Below are positions 1,963-32,752 of a DNA stretch of 64,000 nt, piece by piece; position 1 is the first letter of the stretch, and each line of letters opens with the position of its first letter. Below the pieces are notes generated by a model. The model had not been told where the DNA came from. It searched no databases and saw only the letters and a list, made by a program, of their open reading frames with translations. The DNA comes from Escherichia phage BAU.Micro_ELP-22. The stretch lies in the sequence record OR699282.2, one strand, 5' to 3'. Both the position numbers and the translations under genes were made by a program.

Positions 1963-2298
<336 letters not shown>

Positions 2299-2299
2299 A

Positions 2300-2482
2300 A
2301 TGACACACGAAGAATGGATGTCCAAACAGCATAAAGAACATGACTGCTTTGGGAATGGCATTCGTCAGGTACATTATGATATATTAAGAGATGAAAATCT
2401 TTTCAGGTCATATGTTTTGGATACCAGAAAACCCTGGTTTATATGCGAACTGGCATTTAGAAAGTCAAATAATCAAAACTAA
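2300..2482 (+). CDS. MTHEEW-family small protein (paralog)
   Basis: N-terminus MTHEEWM, C-term WFICELAFRK. Confidence 0.55.
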   Translation: MTHEEWMSKQHKEHDCFGNGIRQVHYDILRDENLFRSYVLDTRKPWFICELAFRKSNNQN

Positions 2483-2498
2483 ACAAGGAATACAAAAA

Positions 2499-2717
2499 AT
2501 GGAAACAACTTTATTAGAAGTTATTCAATCATTAAAACCTGAAGATGAGGTTCAAGTACTACTACATGGTTATCGTGTAAAAGGTACTGTGGTTTTAGTC
2601 AATGATACAACATTGGTTATTACAGAAACAAACCCATATGATAGTAATCAACTTGCCAATATCCATATCGATATCACTGGAATTATTGGTGTCGGTGTAT
2701 CTAAAACACTTGCATAA
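2499..2717 (+). CDS. hypothetical small protein
   Basis: ATG 9 nt after CAAGGA; track ORF 2391..2717 trimmed. Confidence 0.4.
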   Translation: METTLLEVIQSLKPEDEVQVLLHGYRVKGTVVLVNDTTLVITETNPYDSNQLANIHIDITGIIGVGVSKTLA

Positions 2718-2770
2718 ATCATTAATTCATTATATAATGATTATCACTGGTTCTAGATGAGGATAATATT

Positions 2771-3043
2771 ATGCATTTTGAAAAATTCAACGTAAATCGT
2801 AACACACGCATTGAAGTTCTTTATGAAACTCAAGACACCATTAGTATTCGTACAAGTAGTGGGGATGTATATCATGACTGTACGATTGGCTGGGAACAGG
2901 GAAGAACGCGTAGTGCAGTATTTGATAATTATCGCTTTTATCAAGGAGACACTACGATTTGGCCTGAATACGTAGAAGATATTGCGTTTGAAGATGAACA
3001 TAAAGATGAATTTATCAAATTTAATCCTCAAACTGAATCATAA
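2771..3043 (+). CDS. hypothetical protein
   Basis: 90-codon ORF with GAGGAT SD. Confidence 0.5.
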   Translation: MHFEKFNVNRNTRIEVLYETQDTISIRTSSGDVYHDCTIGWEQGRTRSAVFDNYRFYQGDTTIWPEYVEDIAFEDEHKDEFIKFNPQTES

Positions 3044-3060
3044 ATAATGGGACATCACAT

Positions 3061-3176
<116 letters not shown>

Positions 3177-3180
3177 AAAT

Positions 3181-3282
<102 letters not shown>

Positions 3283-3287
3283 AAACC

Positions 3288-3448
3288 ATGACGCATGAAG
3301 AATGGATGAATGACATTAATTTTAGATATTCGGGTATCGGTAAATGGCTAAAGTATCATTGGGAATTCATTTCAGAGCCACATATGTATGATAAACTTAT
3401 CAACGATCCAGCATATGAAATGTACTTAATTGAACTACTGGTACGAAT

Positions 3449-3452
<4 letters not shown>
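3288..3452 (+). CDS. MTHEEW-family small protein (paralog)
   Basis: 54 codons starting MTHEEWM, directly after tRNA-like element. Confidence 0.5.
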
Positions 3453-3614
<162 letters not shown>

Positions 3615-3624
3615 AAAAAAAAGA

Positions 3625-4033
<409 letters not shown>

Positions 4034-4037
<4 letters not shown>

Positions 4038-4061
4038 CTAAATAATTCAGTACTGTATAAT
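4034..4061 (+). promoter_or_regulatory. sigma70-like early promoter
   Basis: TTGACTAAATAATTCAGTACTGTATAAT immediately upstream of tRNA-Gly. Confidence 0.6.
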
Positions 4062-4063
4062 GC

Positions 4064-4147
<84 letters not shown>

Positions 4148-4161
4148 TTAATAATTCAAAG

Positions 4162-4344
4162 GTGAATATGATGCTATCACACAAAACAGCAACTGTTGAA
4201 AATATTGAATCATTATCTGCACAAGAATTGGTTGACAAAATTAAAGAAGTATGTGATAATAATGGCATTGATATGAATGATACATTTATTAGTGTAGGTT
4301 ATGGTGATTTAGAAATTCAATCTAAAACACTATATTATACTTGA
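4162..4344 (+). CDS. hypothetical small protein
   Basis: 60-codon ORF with AAAGGTGA SD. Confidence 0.45.
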   Translation: MNMMLSHKTATVENIESLSAQELVDKIKEVCDNNGIDMNDTFISVGYGDLEIQSKTLYYT

Positions 4345-4400
4345 CTAAATAGTTCAGTACCGAAGGAGATTAATATGTTTAAAGATGAACGTCCAGATTT

Positions 4401-4441
<41 letters not shown>

Positions 4442-4449
4442 GAATTCCA

Positions 4450-4795
4450 CAATCAGACGTATATGGTGTAAGTTACGTCGATGCAATCCAGAACAAGATC
4501 TCTGGTACTCTAGGAAGTGGTGAATGTTAACCTAGACGGGTTTGATAATTGGACGATAGGCAATTATTACTTGACTAGCAGGTTGAAACTAGAGGTGACA
4601 GTCCTTCACCAAACTGGAAAACCGGATGGACTTTTATTTAAAAGGGTAAGGCGTGGAAATATGTTTACAGAAGTTGCTTTTAGTAGCCTGTACGCCCCAC
4701 GTCAAGGTAGCCGAAAGGCAAGTTAAAACGGATGGTTATAAAGCTGAATTAACAGCGGCGTTTAAAAGCGTCACCATCCATTTTTTTTAATTAAA
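4450..4795 (+). ncRNA. candidate structured small RNA(s) in tRNA cluster
   Basis: GC-richer stretch downstream of promoter 4413-4441, ends in hairpin GGATGGT..CACCATCC plus T8; only a weak 69-codon ORF without SD. Confidence 0.3.
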
Positions 4796-4804
4796 GTTGG
4801 TGAT

Positions 4805-5194
<390 letters not shown>

Positions 5195-5210
5195 TATTAA
5201 GTATTGATAT

Positions 5211-5456
<246 letters not shown>

Positions 5457-5461
5457 CTAAA

Positions 5462-5626
<165 letters not shown>

Positions 5627-5650
5627 ACGAAATTACAATAGGAAATTAAA

Positions 5651-5836
5651 ATGCAACTTTTAATTCTTTCAATATTGTATATTATTATAATGGTTCCGAT
5701 ATCAATACGTTTAATTACAGTTGAACGATTTTTATCGAAACATGGAAATAGATCTATGATCTTTGTACCAATCGGGTTGATATTGTTTGGTATATTTTCA
5801 TTTATAATGGGAATTAACGCTACATTCATTTCATAG
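5651..5836 (+). CDS. small hydrophobic membrane protein
   Basis: 61 codons, two hydrophobic segments. Confidence 0.45.
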   Translation: MQLLILSILYIIIMVPISIRLITVERFLSKHGNRSMIFVPIGLILFGIFSFIMGINATFIS

Positions 5837-5845
5837 GAAACAAAT

Positions 5846-6103
<258 letters not shown>

Positions 6104-6111
6104 GAATTTAA

Positions 6112-6513
6112 ATGAAAAAGAATGACTTGATCAAAATGCTTCAAGAGATTGACGGCAATCCAGAGATTGTTATTTGGAATGGATATGTCGATGATTATAT
6201 GAACATCGAAAAAGGCTTGACTAAAATCACTCTAGTCAAAGAAACTGAACAGTTCCTTCTGGAAGCATTAGTGCACGAATGGTGCAAACGTAACAATACA
6301 TTCGACATTCCAGAAGATCAACGAACTAAGATTGCAGAACGTGCTAAAGAACTGCATAAGAAACGCGAATACGATTTCCAGAACCCACATGTTACTGAAG
6401 ACGAATTCAATCACTGGTACGGTAAAAAGAAATTGACAAAGTATGTCCTTTCACCTAAACTACGTGGTAAGACTTCACTTGGTGTATTCAACGCCGCAGA
6501 CTTAAACTACTAG
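6112..6513 (+). CDS. hypothetical protein
   Basis: 133-codon ORF, GC-richer codon usage. Confidence 0.6.
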   Translation: MKKNDLIKMLQEIDGNPEIVIWNGYVDDYMNIEKGLTKITLVKETEQFLLEALVHEWCKRNNTFDIPEDQRTKIAERAKELHKKREYDFQNPHVTEDEFNHWYGKKKLTKYVLSPKLRGKTSLGVFNAADLNY

Positions 6514-6522
6514 CGGGTATTA

Positions 6523-6777
<255 letters not shown>

Positions 6778-6812
6778 CAGGGGAGGTTGTGATTCCCGAT
6801 TCAGTAGCTTAT

Positions 6813-6935
<123 letters not shown>

Positions 6936-6936
6936 T

Positions 6937-7071
<135 letters not shown>

Positions 7072-7073
7072 TA

Positions 7074-7130
<57 letters not shown>

Positions 7131-7215
7131 AGTAAGAGTAAAAATGAAAGTAAGTAAAAAAACTACCAAGCAGCTTGAAGAACTTTGTAGTGCTGCACCT
7201 ATGCCGACTCTTGGC

Positions 7216-7316
<101 letters not shown>

Positions 7317-7328
7317 TATCTTACTTCT

Positions 7329-7407
<79 letters not shown>

Positions 7408-7424
7408 CAAAATAAAGGTACACT

Positions 7425-12130: not shown

Positions 12131-12919
12131 ATGAGCAACATTTTCTTCAAAACTATTTCTTTCAAAAAAGCATCTTACTCCTACGCCTACGTTGATGGTA
12201 AAGTGCTTAATATTGTACTGGATGGTGTTGACGTACCAGTTGAATTTAAAACACATGAAGAAGCAGTTGAAGGTGCTAAAGAATTGAATTCAATTCTTAA
12301 TGGTGAAGTAAGTCAAAAACAACATGTAAAATCTGATTTAGATGTACTTTTGGAAAAAATCAAAACTGGTGAAGTATTAGAAATTTTAGACAACTGTAAT
12401 GAAAAACTTCGTAATGTAGTTAATAATGTTCGTGACCAGATTCAAGAAAAAGCACTAGAGCAAGCATTCAAACATGTATCCAAGAATGCTGAATCTCGTA
12501 TTGACGGTATGGTTAAAAATCTTGATGATGTACTATCCCATCTCTTTACTAAAGAATACGAACAAGAAGTTGAAGAAGAACCAGTAAAAGAAACTAAAAA
12601 AGAAAAACGTAGCTTTGGCTCAGGTGATGATGTGTTTGGTTTTACGAATGTCAGAACAAGTGCAGATGAACCAAAAGAAATTAGTGAGATGCTCATTGGT
12701 GACATGACAACTAAGCAGCTTCGTAATGAAATTGACAAGTTTGTAACTAGTTGTATCAAATCAGAACGTGCACAAAGTATGTTTAAAAGCATTAGTGAGA
12801 ACTTTGGTCCAGAAGCAACTGAGCAGGCACTAACTGCATTTAAAGAATTGATTTATAATGTAGCCATTAGCAATCCAGATAAAACACTTGAAGAAGTTCT
12901 ACGTGACAATTTCAAATAA
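12131..12919 (+). CDS. hypothetical acidic protein
   Basis: ATG 9 nt after AAGGAG; ends just before terminator. Confidence 0.6.
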   Translation: MSNIFFKTISFKKASYSYAYVDGKVLNIVLDGVDVPVEFKTHEEAVEGAKELNSILNGEVSQKQHVKSDLDVLLEKIKTGEVLEILDNCNEKLRNVVNNVRDQIQEKALEQAFKHVSKNAESRIDGMVKNLDDVLSHLFTKEYEQEVEEEPVKETKKEKRSFGSGDDVFGFTNVRTSADEPKEISEMLIGDMTTKQLRNEIDKFVTSCIKSERAQSMFKSISENFGPEATEQALTAFKELIYNVAISNPDKTLEEVLRDNFK

Positions 12920-12932
12920 TTAGATAAAATTA

Positions 12933-12960
12933 AAGCCACTACAATGTAGTGGCTTTTTTT
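12933..12960. terminator. bidirectional rho-independent terminator
   Basis: AAAGCCACTAC-AAT-GTAGTGGCTTTTTTT between convergent genes. Confidence 0.75.
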
Positions 12961-12961
12961 A

Positions 12962-14116
12962 TTATGCGTTGTAACCAACTATTACGACTGAGCAGTCAAG
13001 CGGTTCTACTACTTTAAGAATTACATTATCATCTTCATCCACTTGTATTTCACTATGAACTACATGATTGTCTGAAGAATATAATTGAACTTGTGGTAGT
13101 GCTTTACCATGTTCAGTTACTGGAACTGAGATAGAGTACATAGAGTCTTCACCGAGAACCCACTCACTTAAAGTATATTCTTTATGGAAAGGAGTAGTAT
13201 GCAGTGTTTTTCCGATTATACTCAAAGAAACAGGTAAATTATCAGTTTGATACACAGTAATATTACCTTCTGCGTCTACAGAAAGATCTACACCAACTTG
13301 ATATAAGTCACCACTGTATGCTTGAAGTGCTAAGTACTGTCCACGATCATGAACATCAAATGGAACAACCGCAGAAAATACACCTTCCGAAACAGGTTCA
13401 AATTGGGATAGAAGAACTGATGTAACAAAATCAATATCCTCACCACTTTCAAGAACATCAAATTCCACCACTTTAGTGTTATAATATGGAGAAGTGAGTG
13501 TAGCAGTACCTTTCCCTGATTGTGTGATAACATCAACTGGAATTGTAAATGCATCATTAACAAATTGGGTAGTAAAGTATTCTGTCCCGTCTGGTAATAC
13601 GATTGTTATTACCATACCGTTAGTATCAATTTCTGAACCAGTGTTGAATAATTTACCACTAATTGAGTCATTACCAACAAATACTGGTGAAATGAGAATA
13701 TTATCTATATCACGATCTATAATACCACATTCAGGTGTATACATATGATACAAGGTTTGTGAACTACCTAAAATTGTTTTATGTAGCATGAATTTATATA
13801 CAAATCCAGTATCAGTTTCTTGTGGCTCTTCAGAATATCCACGAACAAAGAAACAATTTTTATTAATTTCACTTAATAGTTGGTCATTAGTTTTATTGTA
13901 ATTTAATAGATAACCTTTATTATCTTTAGTTGTTATTTGTACTTTACGATATATTATATTAGTTCTTGGATCAACTAAATCATATAATCTATGGCTTCTT
14001 TGGCGATAGATTCTAATATTTTTTAGTCTAGTTCCATCATTGAGGATTGCACCATCAACAACATAACCACATTCACCAAACTTATAGCGTCCAGCCGCAG
14101 CAATTGACCTTGACAT
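12962..14116 (-). CDS. hypothetical protein (single inverted gene)
   Basis: 384-codon minus-strand ORF with GGAGGG SD and TATAAT on minus strand at 14120-14160. Confidence 0.7.
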   Translation of the reverse strand: MSRSIAAAGRYKFGECGYVVDGAILNDGTRLKNIRIYRQRSHRLYDLVDPRTNIIYRKVQITTKDNKGYLLNYNKTNDQLLSEINKNCFFVRGYSEEPQETDTGFVYKFMLHKTILGSSQTLYHMYTPECGIIDRDIDNILISPVFVGNDSISGKLFNTGSEIDTNGMVITIVLPDGTEYFTTQFVNDAFTIPVDVITQSGKGTATLTSPYYNTKVVEFDVLESGEDIDFVTSVLLSQFEPVSEGVFSAVVPFDVHDRGQYLALQAYSGDLYQVGVDLSVDAEGNITVYQTDNLPVSLSIIGKTLHTTPFHKEYTLSEWVLGEDSMYSISVPVTEHGKALPQVQLYSSDNHVVHSEIQVDEDDNVILKVVEPLDCSVVIVGYNA

Positions 14117-14175
14117 TTATCCCTCCATTGGTATAATTATTATAACGTATTTATTATGCATATCCAAAAAATGAG

Positions 14176-14204
14176 CTTGACTGGTGTATGATTTGGTGTT
14201 ATCA
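14176..14204 (+). promoter_or_regulatory. sigma70-like promoter TTGACT-N17-TATCAT
   Basis: Divergent from minus-strand promoter of 12962..14116. Confidence 0.5.
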
Positions 14205-14232
14205 TGTAGTGAATGAATAATGAGGTGTTTTT

Positions 14233-14817
14233 ATGAATGTTATTGATAATAGATTAGTACTGAAAAATGGAAAAATGACTGTTAAGTTATATAAAGATGA
14301 AGCTGATTCCTTTATGGCAAAAGCGATTGAAAAATCAGAAAGATATAAACTTTTGGCTCCAGCAAGTAAATCGCCATATGGTTTTAATCATGCACATAGT
14401 CATTTTGTTGGTATGGTGTGTGAGCACGCATCTTTAGTACTTTTTAATGAAATTGAAAACAATACTGGTATTAAACTTAATATCGATCCAGCATTCCAAA
14501 ATGAAGCACGTGACGGTGAATGTGATATTAAGGTAAACAACCTTCGTATTGAAGTAAAAGGTATCAAGTATAAATCATGGACTGACTTTGGACCATGTGT
14601 TAGTACTCGACAGTTAAAAAATATCCAGAAAAAAGCTGACGTAATACTATGGGTATTGTATAATGAGAAAAAACAAGAGTTCACGTTTGAGGGATTCAAC
14701 TATGTAAAAGATATTAGTTCTATCCCAGTTGTCCTCACTGGTGTACCAGGGCGACCAATGATTGAAAATCACCCAGTACTCGGTATTATGAAACCACTAC
14801 AGGAGTTACCATTGTGA
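14233..14817 (+). CDS. hypothetical protein (possible PD-(D/E)xK-like motif)
   Basis: 194 codons; DGECDIKVNNLRIEVKG resembles D...ExK nuclease core (weak). Confidence 0.6.
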   Translation: MNVIDNRLVLKNGKMTVKLYKDEADSFMAKAIEKSERYKLLAPASKSPYGFNHAHSHFVGMVCEHASLVLFNEIENNTGIKLNIDPAFQNEARDGECDIKVNNLRIEVKGIKYKSWTDFGPCVSTRQLKNIQKKADVILWVLYNEKKQEFTFEGFNYVKDISSIPVVLTGVPGRPMIENHPVLGIMKPLQELPL

Positions 14818-18912: not shown

Positions 18913-19878
18913 GTGAAAAAGCTTGATTTAAATACAATTGCCGAAGAAGTTCTGGATGAATGTTTTGCTAATGAAGAAGTCAACACACTAGAAGCCTTAG
19001 ATTTCGTTGAAGATAAAGATGAAAATGAAGGTAAAGTACAAAGCAGTTTCAAATATAATATTACACTTAAGCGACCACCAAATGTTTCCAATGAAGATCT
19101 AATTCGTGATATTCAAGCTGGTATCAATGTAAAGAAAAACACTGAACTGTTAGTTCGTTACAATTATGGACTGATTATTGATGTAGCAAGTAAATGTACT
19201 TGTTATATCCCATTTGAAGATAAGATTTCATATGGTGTTGAGGGGTTCATGAGAGCACTAAAAACCTTTGATCTTAATAAGAATGTTAAGTTCATTACCT
19301 ATGCTTCTTCTAGTATTTACATGACAGTCTATAACGAAAGTTCTGACGCTAACTATATGGTACACTTCCCACGTTATATGAGTGTTCATAAGATCAAAGT
19401 AAAAAGATTCTGTCAGGAATATATGCGTAAACATGGTGTTCGCCCAACTCCTGAAATAATCTCAGAGGGTACTGGGATTGAGATTCAGCATGTTAATAAT
19501 TGTTTGTTATTTCAAAGCGAATACACTTCGCTGGATGCACCATTAGACGGTGTTACAGATGGTACATTAGGTGACATTATTCATTCACCTGCTTCTGATT
19601 TTAACCTCAATGTTGATAGTATCCGTGCACCTTTACGTTATGCTATCAATGAACTGACTAACGAATTGAGTACTAAAGAACGTGAGATTATCCAGCGTGT
19701 TCATGGTCTAGGTGAATATGAACCTGAAACGCTTCGTGAGATTGCTGATAATGGTTTTGTTGATGATAATGGAAAATATGTTAAATCCCGTTCATCAATA
19801 CACCGAAAGTACAGTGAAGCTATGCAAAAGCTTAAGAAGTTAGTACTTGCAAAAGGGTACGAATACGAAGATTTCTAA
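18913..19878 (+). CDS. sigma-70 family RNA polymerase sigma factor
   Basis: GTG start after TAGGAG; regions 2 and 4 recognisable: NVKFITYASSSIYMTV, HFPRYM, GVRPTPEIISE, LSTKEREIIQRVHGL..TLREIA. Confidence 0.7.
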   Translation: MKKLDLNTIAEEVLDECFANEEVNTLEALDFVEDKDENEGKVQSSFKYNITLKRPPNVSNEDLIRDIQAGINVKKNTELLVRYNYGLIIDVASKCTCYIPFEDKISYGVEGFMRALKTFDLNKNVKFITYASSSIYMTVYNESSDANYMVHFPRYMSVHKIKVKRFCQEYMRKHGVRPTPEIISEGTGIEIQHVNNCLLFQSEYTSLDAPLDGVTDGTLGDIIHSPASDFNLNVDSIRAPLRYAINELTNELSTKEREIIQRVHGLGEYEPETLREIADNGFVDDNGKYVKSRSSIHRKYSEAMQKLKKLVLAKGYEYEDF

Positions 19879-30844: not shown

Positions 30845-31228
30845 ATGGTTGATAAATGGAATAAGAAAGATCCATCACATGATGTTGATATTTCTGGTCT
30901 AGACAATGCACATAAGCACAAGTATCTAGATTCACTAGGTCTTCTAAAACCAGACCAAAGTCTTGCACATGATCGTCCATCCCGTGAAAAAGCATTTAGC
31001 CTAGAATCACTAGGTCATGAGCTTAATCGTGTGTTTGAGGATCACCCAATCTATGTACGTGATATTATCGAGAAACTTAAAGTAACTCCTAAAGAGCACT
31101 TTAAAGCAACTGTACACTCTGCATTCCGTGCATTACATGAATCTCTAAAGAAAACTCACAATCTTCGTAAAATTCATGATGAAATCGTGAATGCTATCGA
31201 AAGTGAAAAACATAAGTTCAAGAAGTAA
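30845..31228 (+). CDS. hypothetical basic protein
   Basis: 127 codons; LDSLGLLKPDQ motif shared with 31475 product. Confidence 0.55.
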   Translation: MVDKWNKKDPSHDVDISGLDNAHKHKYLDSLGLLKPDQSLAHDRPSREKAFSLESLGHELNRVFEDHPIYVRDIIEKLKVTPKEHFKATVHSAFRALHESLKKTHNLRKIHDEIVNAIESEKHKFKK

Positions 31229-31474: not shown

Positions 31475-32752
31475 ATGAAATCTATGGAGAGAAATCAAAT
31501 GCCAAGTAATTTTACTGATAAAAATGGTGGTAACATGGCTGGTCACTCTGATAAATGGAGTGAACGCAACCGCCGTCCAAATAGTTATCAAGCAGGTCAA
31601 GGTTCACGTGGGTCACGTAATCAAGGAACTGGTCTAGCTGGTAAAGCAAACGCAGAAGCAGGTGAAGTTAAGAGTACTGAGAACATGACTGAGCTAGAAA
31701 AGCTACGTTATGTTAATTCATTGGGACTTCTTAATGCTACACAAAAACAACGTCTAGCTGATATGGAACGTGAAGAAAAAGAAAAATCTGCTCCTGCTAA
31801 AGAAGAACCAAAACAAGAAGCACCAAAGGCGGTTAACCCTGTCAAAGAACTGTCGGATAAGTTAGGTAAGATTTTTGCTAATAAACCACAACTTATCCAA
31901 GGTATTGTGAAAGAATTGCAATCTGTACCTAAAGAAGAATTAAAAGTCAAAGCACAAGCTGTACTTGATGCAATGAGTGGAAATACCAGTACTGAACCAA
32001 CTGAAGTATTCAGTACTATAATGCGTGCACTTGAAGGTACGCAACAAGGTGATGTGCCTGCACAAGAGGAAGTAAGTCTTGAAAGCGTACTTAAAACATT
32101 TGATAGTATTGGTAAAGAAGACCGTGCTAATGCTCAACAAGTTAAGAATGTACTAGCTAAGTTAGAAAACCGTCTGGAAGGTAAAGACGATAAGATTAAA
32201 TTAGTATCTGATGCAGTTAACGATGCACTTAAATCTTATGTACAAGGTGAAAAGAGTCGTTTTGTAACTGCAATGGATGCTGCATTCAATACTATGAAAA
32301 AGTATGAAGCTGATCATGGTGAGAAGGTTACACGAGATGGTTATCTGATGCGTGATGATGAAGAAGGTGCAGTAGAACAGAACGATGTTCATTCAGACGA
32401 AGAAATTGATGACATGGAAGCTGAACTGTCACAAGACCGCCAAATGACTGAAAAATCCCATAACGAACTACAGAAATTAATGCAATGGGTTGCAGATGTT
32501 GGTGAAAAAGCTGGTGCTGATAAGAAGAGTATAAACCGAAATCTTAGTTGGATTAAAGATAAAGTTGGTAACAACGCTCGTAAACTACAAAAAGCGTGGA
32601 CTGATGTAGTGAATGGTGCTGTTGATATTGATGTTGAATCCGGTGAGGCATATGATTATGCATTGACTACACTTGATGACTCTTTCCGTGATTACGAAAA
32701 TGGAAATGTAACTCCTTGGGAAAAGGACATCATGAGCAAATACGGTAAATGA
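31475..32752 (+). CDS. hypothetical charged coiled-coil-rich protein
   Basis: 425 codons, GC-richer, K/E-rich; N-terminal YVNSLGLLNATQ resembles 30845 product. Confidence 0.65.
   Translation: MKSMERNQMPSNFTDKNGGNMAGHSDKWSERNRRPNSYQAGQGSRGSRNQGTGLAGKANAEAGEVKSTENMTELEKLRYVNSLGLLNATQKQRLADMEREEKEKSAPAKEEPKQEAPKAVNPVKELSDKLGKIFANKPQLIQGIVKELQSVPKEELKVKAQAVLDAMSGNTSTEPTEVFSTIMRALEGTQQGDVPAQEEVSLESVLKTFDSIGKEDRANAQQVKNVLAKLENRLEGKDDKIKLVSDAVNDALKSYVQGEKSRFVTAMDAAFNTMKKYEADHGEKVTRDGYLMRDDEEGAVEQNDVHSDEEIDDMEAELSQDRQMTEKSHNELQKLMQWVADVGEKAGADKKSINRNLSWIKDKVGNNARKLQKAWTDVVNGAVDIDVESGEAYDYALTTLDDSFRDYENGNVTPWEKDIMSKYGK

What the first reader, a model, noticed from the sequence alone, without database searches (positions are those of the whole stretch)
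12962..14116. Single inverted gene with divergent promoter region and shared bidirectional terminator
A 384-codon minus-strand gene sits alone among + strand genes, with its own minus-strand TATAAT and GGAGGG and a perfect bidirectional terminator shared with the upstream + gene. The product is Ser/Thr/Val-rich with no motif I recognise; the orientation flip suggests an independently acquired or late-expressed cassette.
Basis: seen in the sequence. Interest (0 to 1): 0.35.

Follow-up and report, generated by a model that had tools for sequence, protein, structure and literature searches.

The report
Lone antisense late virion-protein gene
This is an already catalogued virion protein gene of a giant E. 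coli phage (121Q/PBECO4 type): it encodes an anchor domain plus three immunoglobulin-like domains, points against its neighbours, appears to use a T4-style late promoter, and is ordinary for this kind of phage.

Summary
A 384-codon ORF at 12962..14116 (-) is the only minus-strand gene among about 124 plus-strand features. It has a GGAGGG ribosome site, a TATAAT and an 11-bp hairpin shared with the convergent upstream gene.

The window is an Asteriusvirus jumbo coliphage, 99.8% identical to SHEFM2K and 99.0-99.6% to PBECO4/121Q. The gene is 121Q gp155 ("virion structural protein, Ig-domain") and phAPEC6 gp077. Published mass spectrometry found gp077 in virions (10 peptides, 37.8% coverage).

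The "independently acquired" reading fails. The lone inversion, the flanking genes and the hairpin are conserved in 11 other genomes from several genera, down to 31% protein identity. GC content matches the flanks.

The "late-expressed" reading is supported. A T4-like late-promoter core, TAAATA, starts 30-41 nt upstream of the ATG in 12 of 12 orthologues. RTAAATAY is four-fold depleted in the window, and its four intergenic copies all precede virion-protein genes.

The product is a conserved N-terminal domain of about 125 aa, absent from Pfam and the PDB, followed by three Ig-like domains. That N-domain is shared with the abundant 14-kDa virion protein gp347/gp471. The likely role is surface decoration. 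Its position on the virion is unresolved.

The parts
12962..14116 (-). CDS, 384 aa. It is 121Q gp155, PBECO4 and SHEFM2K "virion structural protein", and phAPEC6 gp077.
   Evidence: ORF. 100% protein identity to 17 of the listed phage records. phrog_10468 match at E = 7.6e-184 over the full length. 121Q annotation "structural protein, Ig-domain". Virion MS detection of phAPEC6 gp077.
13742..14116 (-). N-terminal conserved domain (aa 1 to about 125). It is a beta-rich module and the proposed virion-docking anchor.
13451..13711 (-). Ig-like domain 1 (aa about 136-222), of the CarboxypepD_reg / adhesin-stalk repeat type.
   Evidence: AF2 pLDDT above 85. Homologous repeats occur 13-20 times in 1805- and 2501-aa proteins that carry a putative adhesive domain, the 2501-aa one also an LPXTG anchor. 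An orthologue hits PF13620 below the Pfam cut-off.
13211..13435 (-). Ig-like domain 2 (aa about 228-302).
   Evidence: AF2 beta-sandwich with pLDDT about 90. Foldseek PDB hits are tandem Ig arrays such as Bap, filamin and antigen I/II.
12965..13195 (-). Ig-like domain 3 (aa about 308-384).
   Evidence: AF2 pLDDT above 90. Weak Ig_NUP210 Pfam hit below cut-off. Stand-alone homologues of profile positions about 300-380 exist.
14121..14126 (-). Shine-Dalgarno GGAGGG, 4 nt upstream of the ATG.
   Evidence: Read directly. A GGAG-type motif is kept at the same place in the orthologues.
14147..14154 (-). ATAAATAC, a T4-like late-promoter core. It ends 30 nt upstream of the ATG.
   Evidence: TAAATA starts at -30 to -41 in 12 of 12 orthologues, with a per-sequence chance of 1-5%. 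RTAAATAY occurs 10 times against 39.7 +/- 6.7 expected in the window. The 4 intergenic copies all lie 17-35 nt upstream of virion-protein genes. The CBB paper proposes ATAAATA as the late promoter of this phage group (PMC5259590).
14139..14144 (-). Possibly an auxiliary sigma70-type -10 element, not deeply conserved.
   Evidence: 10 of 12 matches. Present in only 4 of 12 orthologues.
12932..12956 (.). Hairpin shared by the convergent genes; a bidirectional intrinsic terminator candidate.
   Evidence: It is annotated as a terminator in phage G17 and Munch. An equivalent hairpin follows the gene in all 12 orthologues.
14177..14205 (+). Divergent sigma70-type promoter (TTGACT-17-TGtTATCAT) for the + gene at 14233..14817.
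   Evidence: Its TTGAC is conserved in the divergent intergenic region of 11 of 12 orthologues.
14110..14137 (+). Second + strand promoter, a perfect consensus TTGACA-16-TGgTATAAT. Its -35 overlaps the start codon of the minus-strand gene.
   Evidence: 12 of 12 matches. Retained only in close Asteriusvirus relatives.
12131..12919 (+). Convergent neighbour, 121Q gp154 / phAPEC6 gp078c, also a virion protein.
   Evidence: phrog_14991 match. MS detection with 4 peptides and 21.4% coverage. It is the convergent neighbour in the seven orthologous loci without an insertion; in the five Mimasvirus/Eneladusvirus-type and XaC1 loci a methyltransferase gene intervenes.

Best explanation
The gene encodes a late-made, surface-exposed virion protein of a Rak2-like (Asteriusvirus) jumbo phage.

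Architecture (shown). A conserved N-terminal domain of about 125 aa is followed by three tandem Ig-like beta-sandwich domains.

Virion association (shown for a 99.5%-identical orthologue). Published mass spectrometry found the protein in purified particles.

Expression (inferred). The gene is transcribed leftward from a T4-type late promoter core (ATAAATA, ending 30 nt upstream of the ATG). A phage late sigma factor would read it after the surrounding rightward early/middle genes have been expressed. The shared hairpin at its 3' end stops both convergent transcripts. Antisense placement plus this hairpin isolates the late gene from read-through of the early block.

Mechanism (inferred). The N-domain docks the protein onto the particle and the Ig-like array projects outward, like a Hoc- or pb10-type decoration. 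It probably mediates weak adhesion to host or environmental glycans. The N-domain is shared with the very abundant 14-kDa virion protein gp347/gp471.

Location (not shown). My best guess is one of the unassigned outer densities seen by cryo-EM on 121Q/phAPEC6, such as the hexon-centre protein. I put about 0.35 on that, with a tail-sheath or collar site as the main alternative.

The lone inversion is ancient and is typical of T4-like genomes, in which late genes run opposite to early ones.
For: Identity. The window is 99.8% identical to SHEFM2K and 99.0-99.6% to PBECO4 and 121Q over 3 kb. The protein is 100% identical in 17 of the listed records and is annotated as a virion structural protein with an Ig domain.

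Virion presence. phAPEC6 gp077, 42.88 kDa, 10 unique peptides, 37.8% coverage.

Ancient arrangement. A lone inverted orthologue is present in CBB, GAP32, Yen9-04, XbC2, XaC1, Munch, Hallingskeid, A4, EJP2, Turkey5 and BF17. GC content equals the flanks.

Late promoter. TAAATA is present at -30 to -41 in 12 of 12 orthologues, against TATAAT in 4 of 12. RTAAATAY is four-fold depleted. Its 4 intergenic copies sit 17-35 nt upstream of this gene, of the 100%-identical homologues of MS-detected gp037c and gp035c, and of the first gene of the virion RCC1-like array. The literature proposes ATAAATA as the late motif in CBB and GAP32, and assigns the CBB_390-546 block that holds the orthologue to the early region.

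Structure. The full-length AF2 model has pLDDT 80, with residues 135-384 mostly above 85. Foldseek returns tandem Ig arrays.

N-domain modularity. It is always at the N-terminus, followed by 0 to more than 10 Big_2, Big_1 or invasin domains.

Paralogue. gp347 is the N-domain alone and has the highest MS coverage in the table, 75.2%.

Unassigned densities. Hexon-centre and fibre densities are reported on 121Q and phAPEC6.
Against: No transcript data exist for any Asteriusvirus; the literature search found none. "Late" therefore rests on motif conservation and virion presence.

The motif matches 7 of 8 positions of T4 TATAAATA. The gp55-like sigma factor was not located in this window; the sigma gene at 18913..19878 is sigma70-type.

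The convergent virion-protein gene gp154 has no such motif. The motif is therefore not obligatory for virion genes.

The Rak2-like phage phiKp24 shows no capsid decoration at 4.1 A, and its relatives RaK2 and K64-1 encode an N-domain protein. phiKp24 itself was not checked for such a gene.

The 119-nm tail hairs of CBB are far too long for three Ig domains.
Confidence: 0.72

Rival explanations
1. Tail location. The protein decorates the contractile tail (sheath rings, collar, or the base of the hairy fibres) rather than the capsid. The N-domain would dock on sheath or neck proteins.
For: phAPEC6 and 121Q carry fibres and an unassigned decoration protein at defined levels of the tail as well as on the capsid. 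Paralogues are widely annotated "major tail protein". phiKp24 shows no capsid decoration.
Against: The "major tail protein" labels appear to derive from Big_2 similarity to other phages' Ig-bearing proteins (note), not from experiment. Nothing computed here discriminates tail from head. Three Ig domains (roughly 12 nm, my estimate) cannot make the 119-nm hairs.
Confidence: 0.3
2. Early or constitutive gene. It would be driven by the reader's sigma70-type promoter (TGGATA-16-TATAAT), and the ATAAATA would be incidental.
For: A 10-of-12 sigma70-like site lies 22 nt upstream of the ATG. The gene lies inside what the CBB authors call the early region. The neighbouring virion protein gp154 sits on the early strand with no late motif upstream.
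Against: TATAAT is absent in 8 of 12 orthologues, while TAAATA is present in all 12 at a fixed distance. Promoter-like sites are at chance density. RTAAATAY is depleted and is associated with virion genes. A dual promoter in the close Asteriusvirus group is not excluded.
Confidence: 0.12
3. Recently and independently acquired foreign cassette (moron) inserted in reverse orientation.
For: It is a single inverted gene with its own promoter and terminator. Ig-like domain 1 is homologous to bacterial adhesin stalk repeats, so domain-level exchange with bacteria happened at some time.
Against: Orientation and neighbours are conserved across at least 5 groups of jumbo phages down to 31% identity. 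There is no GC deviation. A second paralogue locus shows the same lone-inverted design across the clade. This is a clade-wide design, not an insertion.
Confidence: 0.03

Closest known systems
T4 Hoc (highly immunogenic outer capsid protein, 376 aa)
   Same: Similar size. Three tandem Ig-like domains plus one non-Ig virion-binding domain. A dispensable-type surface decoration in a T4-related lineage. Encoded as a late gene pointing against its neighbours (T4 hoc is on the minus strand beside plus-strand late genes).
   Different: No detectable sequence relationship (hhalign probability 0.1%). The domain order is reversed: the conserved non-Ig domain is N-terminal here and C-terminal in Hoc (the latter from my own knowledge). 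Binding at the hexamer centre is not shown here.
T5 pb10 decoration protein (164 aa; N-terminal capsid-binding domain plus C-terminal Ig-like domain)
   Same: Same order of parts: N-terminal anchor followed by exposed Ig-like domain(s). pb10's domain layout is from my own knowledge of Vernhes et al. 2017. T5.151 is annotated "Hoc-like head decoration".
Paralogues in the same clade: 121Q gp471 / phAPEC6 gp347 (125 aa), RaK2 gp496 (212 aa), CBB gp112 (218 aa)
   Same: Homologous N-terminal domain. All are virion or Ig-domain proteins. All are also lone inverted genes followed by an A-tract/hairpin/T-tract terminator.
   Different: They carry 0 or 1 Big_2 domain instead of three Ig-like domains of other subtypes. 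They sit at a different, separately conserved locus, between Sir2/Nudix/ClpP-like genes and dCMP deaminase.
T4-type late transcription units (TATAAATA promoters read by gp55-type sigma)
   Same: An ATAAATA core about 30 nt upstream of the ATG, orientation opposite to early genes, and a structural-protein product. The same motif is proposed for CBB and GAP32 structural genes.
   Different: It matches 7 of 8 positions of the T4 consensus. The late sigma factor and any co-activators of this phage are uncharacterised; the CBB authors found a gp55-like gene but no gp33 or gp45 homologues.

Membership tests
121Q gp155-type virion structural protein (phrog_10468) | Full-length profile match | tested here: met
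   E = 7.6e-184, residues 1-383 against profile 1-384. 100% identical to the 121Q and PBECO4 proteins.
121Q gp155-type virion structural protein (phrog_10468) | Physical presence in purified virions | not testable with these tools
   Taken from the literature: phAPEC6 gp077 (99.5% identical) had 10 peptides and 37.8% coverage (PMC7247149).
T4-type late gene | TATAAATA-like element at about -10, upstream of the gene | tested here: met
   ATAAATAC at 14154..14147 (-). TAAATA is conserved in 12 of 12 orthologues at -30 to -41 from the ATG. The motif is depleted elsewhere.
T4-type late gene | Transcription late in infection, dependent on a gp55-type sigma factor | not testable with these tools
   No transcriptome was found for this genus. 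A gp55-like gene is reported for CBB but was not looked for in this genome.
T4 Hoc family | Sequence homology to Hoc | tested here: not met
   hhalign probability 0.1% for both the full-length and N-domain profiles.
T4 Hoc family | Tandem Ig-like domains exposed on the virion | tested here: inconclusive
   Three Ig-like domains are predicted with high confidence. Exposure on the virion is not tested.
T5 pb10-type decoration | Homology of the capsid-binding domain by sequence or fold | tested here: not met
T5 pb10-type decoration | One copy bound at the centre of each hexamer | not testable with these tools
   An unassigned hexon-centre density exists in 121Q and phAPEC6.
Bidirectional intrinsic terminator | G+C-rich hairpin flanked by an A-tract and a T-tract | tested here: met
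   11-bp stem with 5 G-C pairs. U7 on the + RNA and an interrupted U-tract on the - RNA. Equivalent hairpins occur in 12 of 12 orthologues. Termination itself is not tested.
Horizontally acquired moron or cassette | Patchy distribution and compositional deviation | tested here: not met
   Present with the same neighbours in all 11 orthologous loci inspected in detail. GC is 33.5% against 32.2-32.5% for the flanks.

The most novel reading that the evidence does not exclude

The stand-alone form (gp347/gp471, the best-covered protein in the virion proteome) and the Ig-bearing forms (gp155 here; relatives with 0 to more than 10 Ig domains and up to 1859 aa) would bind the same repeated site on the particle. 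On this reading gp155 and its paralogue account for the still-unassigned outer densities of the 121Q/phAPEC6 capsid: the hexon-centre protein, the decoration layer, or both.

The locus would then be a length-variable "display" system for adhesin-type domains.
Probability: 0.3. Interest if true: 0.45.

Novelty: already known. Interest (0 to 1): 0.2.

Why it matters
The finding matters little as it stands. The gene, its Ig-domain annotation and its presence in virions are already published for essentially the same phage. A late structural gene running against early neighbours is normal for T4-related genomes.

Three modest additions came out of the check.

- The phylogenetic footprint and the four-fold genome-wide depletion give good computational support for (A/G)TAAATA(C/T) as the late promoter of this jumbo-phage clade. 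The motif marks virion genes scattered through the "early" region.
- The N-terminal domain is an uncatalogued, modular family shared with the most abundant small virion protein. That makes gp155 and gp471 concrete candidates for the unassigned decoration densities of the T=28 121Q/phAPEC6 capsid.
- Both paralogues use the same lone-inverted gene plus bidirectional terminator layout across the whole clade.

Tried and rejected
- Pfam on the whole protein gave only a sub-threshold Ig_NUP210 hit.
- PDB sequence searches with the full-length and N-domain profiles found nothing meaningful.
- Pfam on 44 N-domain sequences found no shared family.
- BFVD returned only the same jumbo-phage family plus weak hits in Agrobacterium phage Atu_ph07 and uncultured phages.
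- hhalign against T4 Hoc and T5 pb10 found no relationship.
- A search for a paralogue inside the window found none. The paralogue lies elsewhere in the genome.
- I tried to infer head versus tail location from the gene neighbourhood of distant N-domain proteins. The word-indexed search returned only 5 proteins. Both contigs examined were the same syntenic paralogue locus among metabolic genes, so they were uninformative.
- I considered that the protein forms the long hairs of CBB and phAPEC6. I rejected this for the monomer: the hairs are 119 nm and three Ig domains span roughly 12 nm (my estimate). GAP32, for which hairs had not been described, also has the orthologue.
- I looked for transcriptomic data on Asteriusvirus and found none.

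Full report
**What is there.** The ORF at 12962..14116 on the minus strand is real. It is 384 codons long and starts with ATG. A GGAGGG lies at 14126..14121, 4 nt upstream of the ATG. A perfect 11-bp hairpin at 12932..12956 sits between its stop codon and that of the convergent + gene. It folds well on both strands: -15.7 kcal/mol (z = -3.5) on the + RNA and -16.6 kcal/mol (z = -6.0) on the - RNA. The U-tract is clean on the + strand and interrupted on the - strand. Promoter-like hexamer pairs are at chance density in this 34% GC sequence, 19 found against 15.4 +/- 4.3 expected. The TATAAT alone therefore proves nothing.

**Where the window comes from.** A 3-kb stretch around the gene is 99.8% identical to Escherichia phage SHEFM2K and 99.0-99.7% identical to PBECO4, 121Q, phAPEC6, G17 and others. 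These are jumbo myoviruses of about 350 kb in the genus Asteriusvirus, part of the "Rak2-like" group. In the 121Q RefSeq record the gene is gp155, "virion structural protein; structural protein, Ig-domain". Over 47.6 kb of that record (genes 110-233, 125 features) it is the only minus-strand feature. The "lone inverted gene" observation is correct.

**It is a virion protein.** The phAPEC6 orthologue is gp077, 99.5% identical. The published ESI-MS/MS proteome of CsCl-purified particles lists gp077 at 42.88 kDa with 10 unique peptides and 37.8% coverage. The convergent neighbour gp078c, the window's 12131..12919 gene, is also listed, with 4 peptides (PMC7247149 Table 1).

**It is not a recent acquisition.** tblastn finds orthologues in 60 phage records, ranging from 100% down to 31% identity. 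I inspected 11 of the more distant loci: CBB, GAP32, Yen9-04, XbC2, XaC1, Munch, Hallingskeid, A4, EJP2, Turkey5 and BF17. In every one the orthologue is a single gene pointing against a long run of opposite-strand genes. In every one the divergent neighbour is a gene of about 190 aa. The convergent neighbour is the gp154-type virion protein; in five loci (CBB, GAP32, Yen9-04, XbC2, XaC1) a methyltransferase gene lies between them. GC content of the gene (33.5%) matches its flanks (32.5% and 32.2%). A hairpin follows the stop codon in all 12 genomes.

**Which promoter.** I aligned the upstream regions of the 12 orthologues in gene orientation.
- The conserved element is not the TATAAT, which is present in 4 of 12.
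- The conserved element is TAAATA, mostly ATAAATA or GTAAATA followed by C or T. It starts at -30 to -41 from the ATG in 12 of 12.
- The per-sequence chance of such a hit is 1-5%.
- In the window it reads ATAAATAC at 14154..14147 (-).
- The CBB paper proposed ATAAATA, resembling the T4 late promoter TATAAATA, as the late promoter of structural genes in CBB and GAP32. It also assigned the block containing the orthologue (CBB_390-546) to the early region, with RpoD-like promoters (PMC5259590).

**Two further results in the window support function.**
- RTAAATAY occurs only 10 times on both strands, against 39.7 +/- 6.7 in dinucleotide-preserving shuffles. Every shuffle had at least as many. That four-fold avoidance is what one expects of a strong promoter signal.
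- Four of the ten copies are intergenic, and each lies 17-35 nt upstream of a gene start. The genes are this one; 30845..31228 and 31475..32752, which are 100% identical to the MS-detected virion proteins gp037c and gp035c; and 57519..58628, the first gene of the minus-strand RCC1-like array. Five phAPEC6 members of that array (gp003, gp005-007, gp009, gp010) were MS-detected.

**The divergent side.** The other side of the intergenic region carries a sigma70-type promoter for the + gene at 14233. It reads TTGACT-17-TGtTATCAT at 14177..14205, and its TTGAC is conserved in 11 of 12 orthologues.

**Reading of the layout.** The most economical reading is a late gene embedded antisense in an early/middle block. 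It would be bounded by a shared terminator at one end and a divergent early/late promoter region at the other. From my own knowledge, T4 itself transcribes most late genes in the direction opposite to early genes, so this layout is expected in a distant T4 relative. No transcriptome for this genus was found. The timing therefore remains inferred.

**The protein.** AlphaFold2 on a 14-sequence alignment gives mean pLDDT 80. Residues 135-384 form three beta-sandwich domains, mostly above pLDDT 85. Foldseek against the PDB returns tandem Ig-like arrays: Bap, antigen I/II, filamin, Sap S-layer and NCAM. Domain 1 is homologous to a repeat found 13-20 times in 1805- and 2501-aa proteins that carry a putative adhesive domain, the 2501-aa one also an LPXTG anchor. 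There is no sequence relative in the PDB.

**The N-terminal domain is modular.** An exhaustive HMMER search of 1.84 billion representatives found 160 hits.
- Profile positions 1 to about 122 recur, always at the very N-terminus, in about 100 clusters ranging from 124 to 1859 aa.
- Their C-terminal parts are arrays of Big_2, Big_1 or invasin-type Ig domains, or unknown sequence.
- The domain has no Pfam family and no PDB sequence match.
- With a 44-sequence alignment it models confidently (pLDDT 86, pTM 0.83) as a beta-rich domain.
- BFVD finds only the same jumbo-phage family.
- Among 50,697 cultured-phage records the domain occurs in 70. All are Rak2-like jumbo phages, with 1-4 copies each.

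**The paralogue.** In phAPEC6 the second copy is gp347 (121Q gp471). It is 125 aa, the N-domain alone, and has 75.2% MS coverage, the highest in the proteome table. In RaK2 and CBB the syntenic gene carries one Big_2 domain. In metagenomic relatives it is followed by extensions of up to more than 1200 aa. This paralogue is also a lone inverted gene followed by an A-tract/hairpin/T-tract, and it sits among Sir2, Nudix, ClpP-like and dCMP-deaminase genes throughout the clade.

**How it most likely works.** Shown: the architecture and the virion presence of the near-identical orthologue. Inferred:
- The N-domain docks on a repeated site of the particle.
- The Ig-like array projects outward as a short fibre, roughly 12 nm by my estimate.
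- Like other phage Ig-like decorations, it gives weak adhesion to cell-surface or environmental glycans.

Cryo-EM of 121Q and phAPEC6 shows unassigned outer components. These are a decoration layer as abundant as the MCP, a fibrous protein at the centre of each hexamer, and fibres and decorations on the tail (PMC7247149; PMC5646251). gp155 and gp471 are plausible candidates for some of these, but nothing here discriminates head from tail. Against a capsid site: phiKp24, a Rak2-like phage, shows no capsid decoration at 4.1 A. Its relatives RaK2 and K64-1 encode an N-domain protein; phiKp24's own genome was not checked. The 119-nm hairs of CBB cannot be this protein as a monomer.

**Comparison with known families.** It works like T4 Hoc (three Ig domains plus a binding domain, similar size) and like T5 pb10 (N-terminal anchor plus Ig). 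It is a member of neither. Profile comparisons give 0.1% probability, and the domain order is opposite to Hoc's. It is a member of phrog_10468.

**Verdict.** What is left over is an uncharacterised docking domain and its unassigned place on the virion.

Noticed in passing
window 14110..14137 (+): A perfect sigma70 consensus promoter (TTGACA-16-TGgTATAAT, 12 of 12 matches with an extended -10) points rightward. Its -35 hexamer overlaps the start codon (14114..14116) of the minus-strand late gene. It lies in tandem with the conserved promoter at 14177..14205. It is kept only in close Asteriusvirus relatives (BF17, Turkey5), not in A4 or beyond. It may compete with RNA polymerase or ribosomes at the late gene's 5' end.
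   Followed up: partly
window, whole (10 sites: 1332, 1962, 8820, 14147, 19313, 27787, 30802, 31450, 32788, 58654): RTAAATAY is four-fold under-represented: 10 copies against 39.7 +/- 6.7 expected. Its four intergenic copies precede virion-protein genes at 12962-14116(-), 30845(+), 31475(+) and 57519-58628(-). This looks like a late-promoter signature that could be used to annotate scattered structural genes in this clade.
   Followed up: partly
window 12131..12919 (+): The gp154 homologue (phAPEC6 gp078c) is an MS-detected virion protein. It lies on the "early" strand directly behind the preceding gene, with no late motif upstream. It is paired convergently with the gp155-type gene in most relatives. 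How and when it is expressed is unclear.
   Followed up: no
L016 5998..6375 (phAPEC6 gp347); L017 3998..4375 (121Q gp471) and 3870..4001 (gp472): The paralogue that is the stand-alone N-domain has the best MS coverage in the phAPEC6 virion table (75.2%). It too is a lone inverted gene with a bidirectional-looking terminator. In 121Q the small ORF gp472 just upstream encodes a decayed fragment of another N-domain (MGEPIAGQDQFPFTLGGYLVDG...).
   Followed up: partly
L023 10001..13955: In a metagenomic Rak2-like contig the N-domain ORF (112 aa) overlaps a 1221-aa ORF on the same strand. This suggests a split or frameshifted long N-domain plus extension gene. The C-terminal extension at this locus varies from 0 to more than 1200 aa among relatives.
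   Followed up: no
window 45788..58628 (-): An array of about 10 RCC1-repeat genes lies on the minus strand. Gene content and identity differ from phAPEC6 (62-100% identity to the best phAPEC6 paralogue). This is a fast-evolving paralogue family whose members are found in virions.
   Followed up: partly
window 1985..7408 (+): Seven tRNA genes (Gly-tcc twice, Ser-tga, Ser-gct, Met, Asn, Thr) are interspersed with small ORFs. The set differs slightly from the 121Q annotation, which has one Gly, a Leu-taa and a Ser-act.
   Followed up: no
window 18913..19878 (+): A sigma70-family sigma factor gene (regions 2, 3 and 4) lies in the early block, 4.8 kb from the finding. It is not the gp55-type late factor and may direct middle transcription.
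   Followed up: no
window 14233..14817 (+): The divergent neighbour (194 aa, phrog_16175, unknown function, weak sub-threshold NOV_C hit) is conserved next to the gp155-type gene in all orthologous loci examined.
   Followed up: no
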